Shown here: positions 46,701 through 49,700 of the stretch, piece after piece | Layout of the letters: each line of letters begins with the position of its first letter | Numbering within the stretch: position 1 is the first letter of the stretch | Assembly (NCBI GenBank): GCA_000165345.1 | Contig: CM000434.1 | Span: 512,001-576,000 of the forward strand | Length of the DNA: 64,000 bases | Direction of reading: 5' to 3' | Program-made: the position numbers

Positions 46701-49700
46701 CTCTTTTCCTAACATTGCCTTCTGTAACATTCAACAAGCTTATTCATAAAAAGAAGCTTAGCAAAATTAAACAGTTCATTACTTGCCAAGAAGAAATGGC
46801 AAATGGAAATCAAGTAAGAAAAGACTTTGGAGAGCTAGAGAAATCCACTACTGAAGAGGACATACTAATTACATGCCCAAAAACCGTACAGTTAAGAGCA
46901 AGATCTGAAGTTACAAATGTTAAGATAAAAATTAAATGCTGTAGTTCGGAAGGAGTTGAGTGCGAATCTTCAGCAATGTGCAACCTTAAAGCCTCTTCTG
47001 CAATCATGGGTGGTTACAGTGTGGTCTGCTCATTAGCAAAATGTAGATATATGCTGAAAATAGACAAGATTAGAAGTTTTTCAACTCCTTCAAATATCTT
47101 CAATGTTTTTGACCTTAATGCTAAAAACAGCTTAAATACAATTATTGATAGACCAATATTTGAGCAACTATTTAGTTATGAGTACTTCACATTTATGGCT
47201 TTATTTATATATAACTTTTGGAGATGCTCAATTCTAGTTTCAAAAAGTGAATACATTGTTACATCTGTATTGTATATCAACAAGAGTGTTGGGATAGAAC
47301 AGGAAATGCTTCAAATCATGAATATTTATAACATTATTATGAGCTTAGGAAGTATCTTCAGCGTAATTTGGGGTATTATTGCAACTAAATATGGTGTCAA
47401 TTTTATGATTGGTTTGACCGCTATCTTAGGATGTTTAATACATGTTTTGCTTATATTCATCGATTCACTACCATTCTGGTGCATTTATTTATATTTTTGC
47501 GCATTTTCTGCTCTGAGATCATTCATATTTGGTTCATTAAATTGCTTCATTGGCGATACATTTGGATTTTCAAATTTTGCGAGATTAGCGGGAATACAAG
47601 CCTTTACATGTTTTATTTTTTTTCAGATTATGAATTTTTTAACTTCGCAATACTTTGAAGTAATTTCCTGGGCAAAAGTTAATCAATACTTGCTGATTCC
47701 TAATATTTTTTTATTATCTGTTCCATTTATTTTGAATCTTTTAAAAGCTAAGAGAAATAATTGAAATTCCATCTTTGAAAAACGATCGACTATTAATTAT
47801 TTGGTTCCTTAAGAAAAAAAAAGGTTAATTTAATGGAAAATGGGAAAAAATCATTCCAAATAGTGGTTAATTCACTTATTTCTGGAGGCATTGCTGGACT
47901 TTTTGTTGAAACAATATTATATCCAGTGGATGCGATAAAAACGAAGATGCAATATAGATCGTTATGCAAAAATAGTGTGTTATTTTTTAGTACTAGAAAC
48001 TACTACAGGCACATATACTCAGGATTCAAGTATTCGGCATTTGGTTCTTTTATTTCTTCTTCCATTTTTTTCGGCACATTCCATTTTTTAAGTAATTATT
48101 CACCACAAGTGAAATATAAATCTCTAAAAACAATGCAAATTTCATTGATAAGTGAATTGTTATCATCACTGTTTAGAGCTCCCTTTGAAGTGATCAAACA
48201 GAATATACAAGTTAGAAACAAATCGTTTTTGGGACACTTTTACACTAATTATTCATTATTTAGGCATTGCCTTAATTTTAATAAAATAACTGCTAGCCTA
48301 ATCAGAGACATTCCCTTTTCCATTATTCAGTTCTCTCTTTGGGAGAAGCTGAACAGAACAGGAGATGGAGTCTTAGGTGAAAAATGCAACTTTAAAGATC
48401 TATTAAGCGGAATCTCTGGAGGTATAAGCGGTGCTATAGCAGCATTAATTACCTCGCCAGCGGACAATATAAGAACATATATTTTTACTAAGGCAAAGAC
48501 AAGAAGTTCAAATGTCTCGATTCTAAGTGCAATAAAAACGATTTACGGACTTAATGGAATAAAATCATTCTATATAGGATCGTTTCTACGTGCTTTATGG
48601 CTTACCATTGGTGGAATAATATATTTTGGTTGCTACCAACTTTGCAATTCTGCATTGGAAAAAATGTACCACAGTTTTGAAACATTACCTCAATGAACTA
48701 AAATAGACTATTTTCTCTGTCAAATAAATATATAGCAATAAATATTGAGTTAACAGCCATCTGACCAAAATATATTCCCCAATTTACATTTCCAAGTATT
48801 TCTTTAATTCCAACGTCGCCCCTACATAACCCAATATGGTCGCTCGACTGGCATCTTTTTACTGTTGAAATAAGAGCTAGTGGTGAAAGTAATGATGTAG
48901 TAAAATTGCTGACCCCATGTTTAAGATGCTTTTTATTATGTGGCTTTGTTTTAGTAGCGAGCAATTTATCTTCCGTGTCTTTCGCACGTTGATAATTAAT
49001 AGATAAATAAGAATATAAACTATTCTTTATTAAATCTTCGGTTATTCTAAAAATAATATGTGCAGTAACACCTTTCCACAAAGAGGTAATACCTTCTTCT
49101 GAATTTACTGAAAGTTGAATTAGTGAATATATCCCTATTACTGACTCTTCAATTTTGTCCTTATCGTCTTGTAACCCAAGATTATAGCGCTTAACGTCAA
49201 AAATTGCCTGTTGTGTAGAAATTACAAGCAAAGGGTATGTGATTATTTCAGAGATATACTTTGCGCTGCTCTTTACATATACTGGTTTTATAAATGAATC
49301 GTGAACTTTACTATGTCTTTTATATACTTTTAAAAGTTGATCATGTAATATTCGTGTAAAATATGAGTGTAAAGTCATAGGTATGAAACCTCTATACAAT
49401 CCCCAATATCCTTCTTCATTATAAATACACCTCAGAGAATCAAAAATAAGTTTTATTCCGCTTAAATTATAAATTATTCCTCTGCTTATCCTTGAACTTG
49501 AAGTTGTTGAATGTGCACTTTCAATGCTATTACTATTTTCTAAATAGCTTTCGAAATAAGGTAAGCACATTGACTTAAGCTGAATTGTGTAAACTGGATA
49601 AATAAGGACTAGTTGAGGGCTATTTAGCACGCCATATAGCCTTAGCAGTTGCCATTGTTCGTTTAATTTTATCTTTGGAAAATTCATTATATATATTTTC

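What the first reader, a model, noticed from the sequence alone, without database searches (positions are those of the whole stretch)
47833..49687. Two mitochondrial-carrier-family genes arranged tail-to-tail with their stop codons about 1 bp apart, one of them highly divergent
A canonical SLC25 carrier on the + strand stops at 48696. A carrier-like gene on the - strand stops at 48698. Its repeats are degenerate (PVYTIQLK / PLLVISTQQA / PLALISTVKR) and have lost the acidic and basic signature residues. The 3' UTRs therefore must overlap on opposite strands. In organisms with reduced mitochondria or mitosomes, the carrier repertoire is tiny, so a second, degenerate carrier is functionally interesting. 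It could have altered substrate or salt-bridge gating, or be a pseudo-carrier. The overlap implies mutual 3'-end antisense transcription.
Basis: partly seen in the sequence, partly recalled or inferred. Interest (0 to 1): 0.5.

Follow-up and report, generated by a model that had tools for sequence, protein, structure and literature searches.

The report
Convergent carrier gene pair, one gate-less
Two mitochondrial-carrier genes in Cryptosporidium parvum end one base apart, which is normal for this compact genome; the odd-looking one is a conserved, functional member of the already described apicomplexan AMC1 family, while the normal-looking neighbour has decayed or disappeared in seven of the ten other Cryptosporidium species compared here.

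The parts
47833..48696 (+). Canonical SLC25 carrier gene, 287 aa. Inferred to be cgd6_2350, the 'Sam5p or Mme1p-like' carrier.
   Evidence: Pfam Mito_carr 112.5 bits over 3 stretches. 100% identical to EAK89885.1 / CAD98526.1 of C. parvum Iowa II. Named in King et al. 2020. Syntenic orthologue intact in C. andersoni.
47923..47940 (+). Signature 1, PVDAIK (Px[DE]xx[KR] intact)
48181..48198 (+). Signature 2, PFEVIK (intact)
48457..48474 (+). Signature 3, PADNIR (intact)
48694..48700 (.). Convergent junction: TGA stop of the plus gene (48694-48696), one spacer base (48697), TAG stop of the minus gene (complement of 48698-48700)
48723..48742 (+). Two AATAAA hexamers 26 and 40 nt downstream of the plus gene's stop, inside the last codons of the minus gene. 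Possible poly(A) signals; suggestive only.
   Evidence: window background about 2 per kb per strand
48698..49687 (-). Gate-less SLC25-fold gene, 329 aa. Inferred to be cgd6_2360, the C. parvum AMC1-family member. Database label 'mitochondrial FAD carrier protein' is weakly founded.
49580..49597 (-). Degenerate signature 1, PVYTIQ (aa 31-36): proline kept, D to Y, K to Q
   Evidence: In the 31-member family, positions 3 and 6 are never charged.
49388..49414 (-). EGYWGLYRG (aa 92-100): conserved matrix-helix / [YWF][KR]G motif of repeat 1
49367..49369 (-). His107, nearly invariant across the family. It lies 7 residues after the YRG glycine, the position that aligns with the G-I contact point of yeast AAC.
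   Evidence: Conservation. Alignment to AAC3. Assignment of the contact point rests on established carrier literature (my own knowledge).
49217..49234 (-). Degenerate signature 2, PLLVIS (aa 152-157)
49070..49093 (-). GITSLWKG (aa 199-206): [YWF][KR]G motif of repeat 2
48866..48883 (-). Degenerate signature 3, PLALIS (aa 269-274)
48824..48856 (-). Family-specific RCQS...GLC element (aa 278-288) after helix 5
   Evidence: R278 and C279 are at least 90% conserved across the family alignment A3. Motif scan.

Best explanation
This is a convergent pair of nuclear SLC25 genes on C. parvum chromosome 6.

The plus-strand gene (cgd6_2350) is an ordinary Sam5p/Mme1p-like carrier with an intact matrix gate.

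The minus-strand gene (cgd6_2360) is the Cryptosporidium member of the AMC1 family. It has an SLC25 fold and keeps the three helix-kinking prolines and two [YW][KR]G motifs. It has no charged residue at any matrix-gate position and at most one cytoplasmic-gate remnant.

Shown here: the gene is functional and strongly constrained. It is retained in every Cryptosporidium examined, including lineages with the most reduced mitosomes.

Inferred: it cannot work by the canonical salt-bridge-gated alternating-access cycle. It most likely has a non-canonical role at the mitosome membrane, either structural or in membrane biogenesis, as the preprint proposes for Plasmodium AMC1. An unusual, weakly gated transport mode is the alternative.

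The 1-bp spacing of the stop codons is a by-product of genome compaction. It makes each transcript's 3' end run antisense into the partner's coding sequence, as happens at most convergent pairs in this genome. It is not a dedicated regulatory device.
For: Identity:
- Exact matches to C. parvum Iowa II proteins.
- Gene names from King et al. 2020 and the AMC1 preprint.

Fold:
- Pfam Mito_carr 44 bits.
- AF2 model pLDDT 74.8, pTM 0.75, six TM helices with kinks at P152 and P269.
- All significant Foldseek PDB hits are carriers.

Gate loss:
- Positions 3 and 6 of the three signatures are Y/Q, L/S and A/S.
- They are never D/E or K/R in any of 31 family members.

Constraint:
- dN/dS is 0.10 (C. 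meleagridis), 0.19 (chipmunk genotype) and 0.14 (C. ubiquitum). Sec1 and MFS neighbours give 0.09-0.13.
- The degenerate motifs are nearly invariant across the genus.
- The gene is intact in 9 fetched species plus C. andersoni, C. muris and C. serpentis.
- C. ryanae keeps it although only 4 carriers are reported for that species.

Family:
- Colinear, near full-length alignments to Plasmodium, Cardiosporidium, Babesia, Eimeria and Cyclospora proteins, which share YPL, EGxxGLYRG, H107 and RCQS..GLC.

Compaction:
- Convergent gaps are 1, 14, 26, 29, 84, 95, 99 and 1311 bp.
- 'Frequent UTR overlaps' in PMC12179316. Mean intergenic distance 504 bp in PMC7840661.
- The junction varies: 70 bp, 1 bp, 0 bp and a 30-bp overlap.
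- The partner gene is lost in most species.
Against: - No localisation, transport or expression data for the Cryptosporidium protein were found.
- The first 21 residues and the 49-76 loop model poorly.
- TM-scores to solved carriers are only about 0.5. The detailed barrel geometry is therefore uncertain.
- A nearly invariant His at a contact-point position, and a frequent basic residue near contact point II (read off the alignment), would also fit a real substrate site. Transport is therefore not excluded.
- The mapping of the ORFs to cgd6_2350 and cgd6_2360 is inferred from order, names and accession numbers, not from a direct ID look-up.
- 3' ends were not measured.
Confidence: 0.6

Rival explanations
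1. cgd6_2360 is still an inner-membrane solute transporter. It uses a non-canonical, weakly gated or uniport-like mechanism for a substrate that every mitosome needs, for example something tied to Fe-S cluster assembly.
For: - Six-helix closed-barrel-like prediction including helix 6.
- Nearly invariant His107 at a contact-point position, and conserved polar residues in the family.
- Retention in the smallest carrier sets.
- Two [YW][KR]G motifs retained.
Against: - All six matrix-network positions are uncharged in all 31 members.
- Only one [DE]xx[KR] remnant lies on an even-numbered helix (EDLIK).
- PfAMC1 is reported at the mitochondrial periphery with a distorted barrel.
- From my own knowledge, the well-studied carriers that lost both networks (MTCH1/2, SLC25A46, Ugo1) are outer-membrane non-transporters.
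Confidence: 0.3
2. cgd6_2360 is a true relative (shared ancestry) of metazoan MTCH2 and acts as an outer-membrane insertase/scramblase in the same way.
For: - Trichoplax MTCH2 is the best non-family hit of the Cryptosporidium profile among 1.84 billion representatives (E 9.2e-13).
- 16 of 122 hits are MTCH-like.
- The best single in-register PDB alignment of the family profile is to MTCH2 chimeras (44.6 bits).
- The preprint reports a Foldseek link between PfAMC1 and MTCH2.
Against: - Profile-profile scores do not separate MTCH from ordinary carriers. AMC1 vs MTCH is 135-146, AMC1 vs canonical carriers 129-138, and MTCH vs canonical carriers 208-217.
- The Trichoplax hit covers one repeat-sized stretch and is shifted by one repeat.
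- The C. parvum model has a helix 6, whereas the preprint says MTCH2 lacks it. The preprint also states that the groove is not predicted for C. parvum.
- From my own knowledge, MTCH is restricted to animals and their relatives, so convergence is more parsimonious.
Confidence: 0.1
3. The near-overlap of the two genes is a selected antisense regulatory module in which each transcript's 3' end controls the other.
For: - The stop codons are 1 bp apart, so the 3' ends must be mutually antisense.
- Two AATAAA hexamers for the plus gene lie inside the minus gene's last codons.
- Antisense transcription is widespread in C. parvum.
Against: - Seven of eight convergent pairs in the window are under 100 bp apart.
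- The gap is not conserved: 70, 1, 0 and -30 bp.
- The partner gene is a pseudogene or absent in C. meleagridis, chipmunk genotype I, C. ubiquitum, C. felis, C. canis, C. ryanae and C. xiaoi, while the AMC1-like gene stays intact and constrained.
- The one lncRNA lead (Cp_lnc_93) does not map to this window.
Confidence: 0.07
4. The minus-strand ORF is a decaying pseudo-carrier with no function.
For: Loss of all signature charges. Weak Pfam score relative to the neighbour.
Against: - dN/dS of 0.10-0.19, equal to housekeeping neighbours.
- No stop or frameshift in 12 species.
- Degenerate motifs nearly invariant across the genus.
- The same state is conserved across Apicomplexa.
Confidence: 0.02

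Closest known systems
AMC1 (apicomplexan mitochondrial carrier 1; PF3D7_0108800 in P. falciparum), Boshoven et al. bioRxiv 2026, 10.64898/2026.03.13.711564
   Same: - Only the proline of each Px[DE]xx[KR] is kept, and the [FY][DE]xx[KR] motifs are disrupted.
- [YWF][KR]G motifs are retained.
- The alignment is colinear and near full-length, with the shared RCQS..GLC element.
- The preprint itself lists cgd6_2360 as the C. parvum homologue.
   Different: - Identity to Plasmodium members is only about 22-27%.
- Cryptosporidium has a mitosome, not a respiring mitochondrion.
- According to the preprint, the open groove predicted for PfAMC1 is not predicted for the C. parvum protein. My model also has a regular helix 6.
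- There are no localisation or phenotype data for Cryptosporidium.
MTCH2 / MTCH1 (metazoan outer-membrane SLC25 homologues; insertase and scramblase)
   Same: SLC25-derived, with the gate charges lost. Best non-family sequence hits of the Cryptosporidium profile.
   Different: - No specific profile-profile affinity.
- MTCH2 is closer to canonical carriers than AMC1 is.
- Helix 6 is present in the C. parvum model.
- The taxonomic ranges do not overlap.
- Activity and localisation are untested.
Canonical SLC25 carriers (AAC, UCP1, OGC; Sam5p/SAMC, Mme1p)
   Same: Three-repeat, six-helix fold for both genes. The plus gene has all three matrix signatures, and its C. andersoni orthologue reads YPLDTLKTRRQ.
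   Different: The minus gene lacks both salt-bridge networks. The plus gene lacks clean cytoplasmic-network and [YWF][KR]G motifs by pattern search. Its substrate has not been tested.
Other degenerate outer-membrane carrier homologues (yeast Ugo1, human SLC25A46). Comparison from my own knowledge, not tested here.
   Same: Carrier-derived proteins with degenerate signatures and non-transport roles in membrane dynamics.
   Different: No sequence comparison was run. They did not stand out among the hits examined.

Membership tests
SLC25 / Pfam Mito_carr (minus-strand protein) | Score above the Pfam gathering threshold | tested here: met
   44.0 bits against a cutoff of 22.3, E 1.9e-11, 2 stretches
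SLC25 / Pfam Mito_carr (minus-strand protein) | Three repeats of about 100 aa forming six TM helices with three short matrix helices | tested here: met
SLC25 / Pfam Mito_carr (minus-strand protein) | Px[DE]xx[KR] matrix salt-bridge signature on helices 1, 3 and 5 | tested here: not met
   PVYTIQ, PLLVIS and PLALIS: the proline is kept and both charges are lost in all three repeats
SLC25 / Pfam Mito_carr (minus-strand protein) | [FY][DE]xx[KR] cytoplasmic network on helices 2, 4 and 6 | tested here: not met
   Only EDLIK (aa 217-221) on helix 4 resembles the motif. The two regex hits FDSLR and FDVKR are not on even-numbered helices.
SLC25 / Pfam Mito_carr (plus-strand protein) | Pfam threshold and three Px[DE]xx[KR] signatures | tested here: met
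   112.5 bits over 3 stretches. PVDAIK, PFEVIK and PADNIR.
SLC25 / Pfam Mito_carr (plus-strand protein) | [FY][DE]xx[KR] cytoplasmic network and [YWF][KR]G motifs | tested here: not met
   No match on even-numbered helices and no [YWF][KR]G by pattern search. This was a pattern search only; no structural check was made.
AMC1 family | Colinear homology to Plasmodium AMC1-type proteins, stronger and longer than to other carriers | tested here: met
   Residues 23-319 align to P. ovale, Cardiosporidium and metagenomic members. Canonical carriers and MTCH match only about residues 81-160. The proteins form a separate cluster. That P0036 is the orthologue of PF3D7_0108800 is inferred.
AMC1 family | Loss of matrix and cytoplasmic gate residues with the prolines retained | tested here: met
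   None of 31 members has a charged residue at position 3 or 6 of any repeat. Proline is kept in 30-31 of 31.
AMC1 family | Localisation at the periphery of the mitochondrion or mitosome | not testable with these tools
   Reported for PfAMC1 only. No Cryptosporidium data were found.
MTCH2-like insertases | Specific sequence relationship to MTCH beyond general SLC25 similarity | tested here: inconclusive
   MTCH is enriched among the top hits and gives the best in-register PDB alignment. However, hhalign scores are 135-146 against 129-138 for canonical carriers.
MTCH2-like insertases | Missing sixth helix, leaving a bilayer-open hydrophilic groove | tested here: not met
   The model has helix 6 at 303-322 with pLDDT about 81-83. 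The preprint also reports no groove for C. parvum. Model coordinates could not be inspected. Solved MTCH2 structures did not appear among the fold-search matches, and AFDB50 was unavailable.
MTCH2-like insertases | Outer-membrane localisation and insertase or scramblase activity | not testable with these tools
   Needs experiments

The most novel reading that the evidence does not exclude
The AMC1-like protein is an SLC25-derived, non-transporting membrane-biogenesis factor of the mitosome envelope. It would be a convergent functional analogue of MTCH2 (alpha-helical protein insertase and/or lipid scramblase). It would belong to the irreducible core of the organelle, which would explain why it survives in every Cryptosporidium while bona fide carriers such as its neighbour are lost.
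Probability: 0.2. Interest if true: 0.65.

Novelty: already known. Interest (0 to 1): 0.3.

Why it matters
Both genes are annotated. The gate-less nature of cgd6_2360 and its assignment to AMC1 are already in a 2026 preprint, so the finding as stated adds little.

What this analysis adds is context that sharpens the open question about AMC1:
- The gate-less state is ancient and shared by all 31 family members examined.
- The gene is as constrained as housekeeping neighbours.
- It is kept even in lineages reported to have about four carriers.
- The canonical neighbour has been lost repeatedly.

This makes Cryptosporidium, which has a tiny mitosome and few carriers, a clean system for asking what a gate-less SLC25 protein does. 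It also cautions against reading the sequence similarity to MTCH2 as common ancestry.

Tried and rejected
1. First AF2 run with only 11 Cryptosporidium sequences. pLDDT was 58.9 with the N-terminal third unreliable. It was replaced by the 31-sequence run.
3. lncRNA lead. The PMC7840661 supplement lists Cp_lnc_93 antisense to 'CPATCC_0027680'. Its sequence is absent from the window. The ID numbering differs from GenBank CPATCC_002768, so the lead was rejected.
4. Tandem-duplication origin of the pair. The two window proteins show no significant BLASTP similarity (E > 1). Rejected for lack of evidence.
5. Conserved linkage with Plasmodium. The gene IDs of PfMME1 (0108400) and PfAMC1 (0108800) are four apart. 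No carrier gene lies within 10 kb either side of P. ovale AMC1. The linkage remains untested beyond that distance.
6. Last word-indexed homology search with the family profile. It was capped at 8000 candidates and returned no new named members. It did show that weak SLC25A32 and Pmp47 similarity probably underlies the 'FAD carrier' label.
7. NCBIfam scan. No hits, as expected for eukaryotic proteins.
8. Literature search for localisation of cgd6_2360, including hyperLOPIT papers. Nothing was found in searchable text.
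Full report
**What is there.** The window is AT-rich (about 32% GC) and gene-dense. It contains 32 ORFs of at least 150 aa, which cover 82% of the sequence. At the flagged site a 287-aa ORF on the plus strand (47833-48696) meets a 329-aa ORF on the minus strand (48698-49687). The plus stop TGA occupies 48694-48696. Base 48697 is a spacer. 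The minus stop TAG is the complement of 48698-48700. Both proteins exceed the Pfam Mito_carr gathering score of 22.3 bits. The plus protein scores 112.5 bits in three stretches and the minus protein 44.0 bits in two.

**Source and names.** The plus protein is 100% identical to C. parvum Iowa II EAK89885.1 / CAD98526.1. The minus protein is an exact match to EAK89886.1 / CAD98527.1, which is labelled 'mitochondrial FAD carrier protein'. King et al. 2020 (PMC7730227) list eight C. parvum SLC25 genes. They include cgd6_2350 ('Sam5p or Mme1p-like') and cgd6_2360 ('unknown carrier'). I infer that these are the plus and minus genes respectively, from gene order, adjacent accession numbers and the SAM-carrier-like signature of the plus protein. 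A 2026 preprint (10.64898/2026.03.13.711564) names cgd6_2360 as the C. parvum homologue of AMC1 (PF3D7_0108800). It describes the family as lacking canonical gating residues and suggests MTCH2 as a structural analogue of PfAMC1.

**The degenerate signatures.**

| Protein | Repeat 1 | Repeat 2 | Repeat 3 |
|---|---|---|---|
| Plus (cgd6_2350) | PVDAIK | PFEVIK | PADNIR |
| Minus (cgd6_2360) | PVYTIQ | PLLVIS | PLALIS |

The minus protein keeps the proline of each signature, but positions 3 and 6 are uncharged in all three repeats. It retains two [YW][KR]G motifs (EGYWGLYRG and GITSLWKG). Its only cytoplasmic-gate-like remnant on an even-numbered helix is EDLIK on helix 4. The plus protein is canonical only for the matrix signature. 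Pattern search finds no clean cytoplasmic network motif and no [YWF][KR]G motif in it. King et al. state that all eight C. parvum carriers contain Px[DE]xx[KR]. That does not hold for this protein.

**Not a decaying gene.** Across 11 Cryptosporidium sequences the odd motifs themselves are nearly invariant (YPVYTIQLKSMC, TYPLLVISTQQ, SPLALISTVKRCQ).

| Comparison with C. parvum | dN/dS, minus gene |
|---|---|
| C. meleagridis | 0.10 |
| C. ubiquitum | 0.14 |
| chipmunk genotype I | 0.19 |

The adjacent Sec1 and MFS genes give 0.09-0.13. tblastn finds the gene full-length and free of stops in all nine fetched species. C. andersoni, C. muris and C. serpentis also have it.

**Family.** A profile search of 1.84 billion representatives found only two full-length Cryptosporidium-level hits, followed by a cliff in score. 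Below the cliff, an 18-member cluster aligns colinearly over residues 23-319. It includes Plasmodium ovale, Cardiosporidium, Babesia microti, Eimeria stiedai and Cyclospora proteins, plus unnamed metagenome and MMETSP sequences. The family shares Y-P-L at each repeat start, EGxxGLYRG, a nearly invariant His107, and an RCQS..GLC element after helix 5. In none of the 31 aligned members is position 3 or 6 of any signature acidic or basic. The gate loss is therefore ancient and family-wide. It is not a mitosome-specific degeneration.

**Relation to MTCH2.**
- Evidence for a link:
  - Trichoplax MTCH2 is the best non-family hit (E 9.2e-13).
  - Sixteen of the 122 hits are MTCH-like.
  - The family profile's best single in-register PDB alignment is to MTCH2 chimeras (44.6 bits, query 79-245 against chain 65-244), whereas the AAC hits are shifted by one repeat.
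- Evidence against a specific link:
  - The Trichoplax match covers only one repeat-sized stretch and is offset by one repeat.
  - Profile-profile comparison gives AMC1 vs MTCH 135-146, AMC1 vs canonical carriers 129-138, and MTCH vs canonical carriers 208-217.

So there is no specific AMC1-MTCH affinity. Convergent loss of the gates is the more economical reading. A direct structural comparison could not be made.

**The junction is ordinary.** The convergent ORF pairs in this window are separated by 1, 14, 26, 29, 84, 95, 99 and 1311 bp. [quoted passage not shown] The lncRNA study gives a mean intergenic distance of 504 bp. The pair is ancestral to the genus: C. andersoni has the same convergent arrangement, with an intact syntenic orthologue of the canonical gene (32% identity, E 9e-40). 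The spacing is not conserved. It is 70 bp in C. andersoni, 1 bp here, 0 bp in one unnamed species and a 30-bp CDS overlap in another. Two AATAAA hexamers lie 26 and 40 nt past the plus gene's stop, inside the minus gene's last codons. That is only suggestive. An apparent antisense lncRNA lead turned out to map elsewhere.

**The unexpected part.** The canonical gene is the dispensable one.

| Species | State of the canonical carrier |
|---|---|
| C. parvum, C. hominis, C. tyzzeri | intact |
| Two unnamed species (L005, L006) | intact |
| C. andersoni | intact |
| C. ubiquitum | about 10 in-frame stops and many frameshifting indels |
| C. meleagridis | start codon lost, two 1-nt deletions and a stop, at 88.5% nt identity |
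| chipmunk genotype I | 29-nt deletion |
| C. felis | 92-aa relic only |
| C. canis | undetectable |
| C. ryanae, C. xiaoi | undetectable; the interval is shrunk to about 460-490 bp |

Published Pfam-based carrier counts fit this pattern: C. parvum 9, C. meleagridis and chipmunk genotype 8, C. ubiquitum 6, C. ryanae 4, C. bovis 3. Those papers do not name the genes. Where both genes are intact, the canonical one also evolves faster (57-58% against 73-76% aa identity in the same species pairs).

**Mechanism.**
- Shown: an SLC25 fold, the absence of every matrix-gate charge, strong purifying selection, and genus-wide and phylum-wide retention.
- Inferred: without either salt-bridge network the protein cannot run the canonical alternating-access cycle.
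- Best guess: a non-canonical role at the mitosome envelope, structural or in membrane biogenesis or dynamics. This matches what the preprint proposes for PfAMC1 from its peripheral localisation and morphology phenotype.
- Alternative: the nearly invariant His107 sits at the position that aligns with the AAC contact-point residue. This keeps an unusual transport function alive as the main rival.

**Verdict.** The degenerate carrier is an already described family member, and the tail-to-tail contact is genome compaction.

Noticed in passing
window 47833-48696; L001 5005-5814, L009 4995-5835, L004 5025-5820, L002 5037-5306; L003, L007, L008 (no trace): The canonical carrier (cgd6_2350) is a pseudogene in C. 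ubiquitum, C. meleagridis, chipmunk genotype I and C. felis. It is undetectable in C. canis, C. ryanae and C. xiaoi. It is intact in C. parvum, C. hominis, C. tyzzeri, C. andersoni and two unnamed species. This points to several independent losses.
   Followed up: yes
proteins P0032, P0035, P0063, P0114, P0115, P0123, P0136, P0137 (alignment A3): AMC1-like sequences with the RCQS..GL motif come from unnamed marine or metagenomic sources, and one cluster includes an MMETSP transcript. The family may extend beyond named Apicomplexa, contrary to the 'apicomplexan-specific' label. Taxonomy could not be resolved.
   Followed up: partly
window 48698-49687 (database annotation): The label 'mitochondrial FAD carrier protein', carried by orthologues in several species, appears to rest on weak partial similarity to SLC25A32 and Pmp47 (19-47% coverage). 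It is probably a misannotation.
   Followed up: partly
PMC7730227 text compared with window 48698-49687: King et al. 2020 state that all eight C. parvum carriers contain Px[DE]xx[KR]. The cgd6_2360 protein contains none.
   Followed up: yes
L007 3884-4870 (C. canis): The annotated C. canis orthologue (P0007, 289 aa) starts at an internal Met. tblastn shows that homology to the full N-terminus begins 117 nt upstream, so the deposited gene model is probably truncated.
   Followed up: partly
window 10590/10605, 29730/29760, 53605/53632; also 55080/55101: Other very tight junctions: convergent ORF pairs 14, 29 and 26 bp apart, and a tandem pair 20 bp apart. Near-abutting genes are routine in this genome.
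   Followed up: partly
P. falciparum gene IDs PF3D7_0108400 (MME1) and PF3D7_0108800 (AMC1); L011: In P. falciparum the MME1-like carrier and AMC1 are four gene IDs apart. This echoes the adjacency in Cryptosporidium. No carrier gene lies within 10 kb either side of P. ovale AMC1, so conserved linkage is neither shown nor excluded.
   Followed up: partly
window 45959-47764 and 47833: A 600-aa MFS-like transporter gene ends only 68 bp upstream of the canonical carrier's ATG, leaving very little room for a promoter. Its Pfam MFS_1 score (28 bits) is below the cutoff of 33.4.
   Followed up: no
Foldseek hits 8b6h_DV, 7w5z_M2 and 7w5z_M3: The best Foldseek matches are SLC25 proteins built into Tetrahymena respiratory complex IV as structural subunits. 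This is an alveolate precedent for carriers used as non-transport scaffold parts.
   Followed up: no
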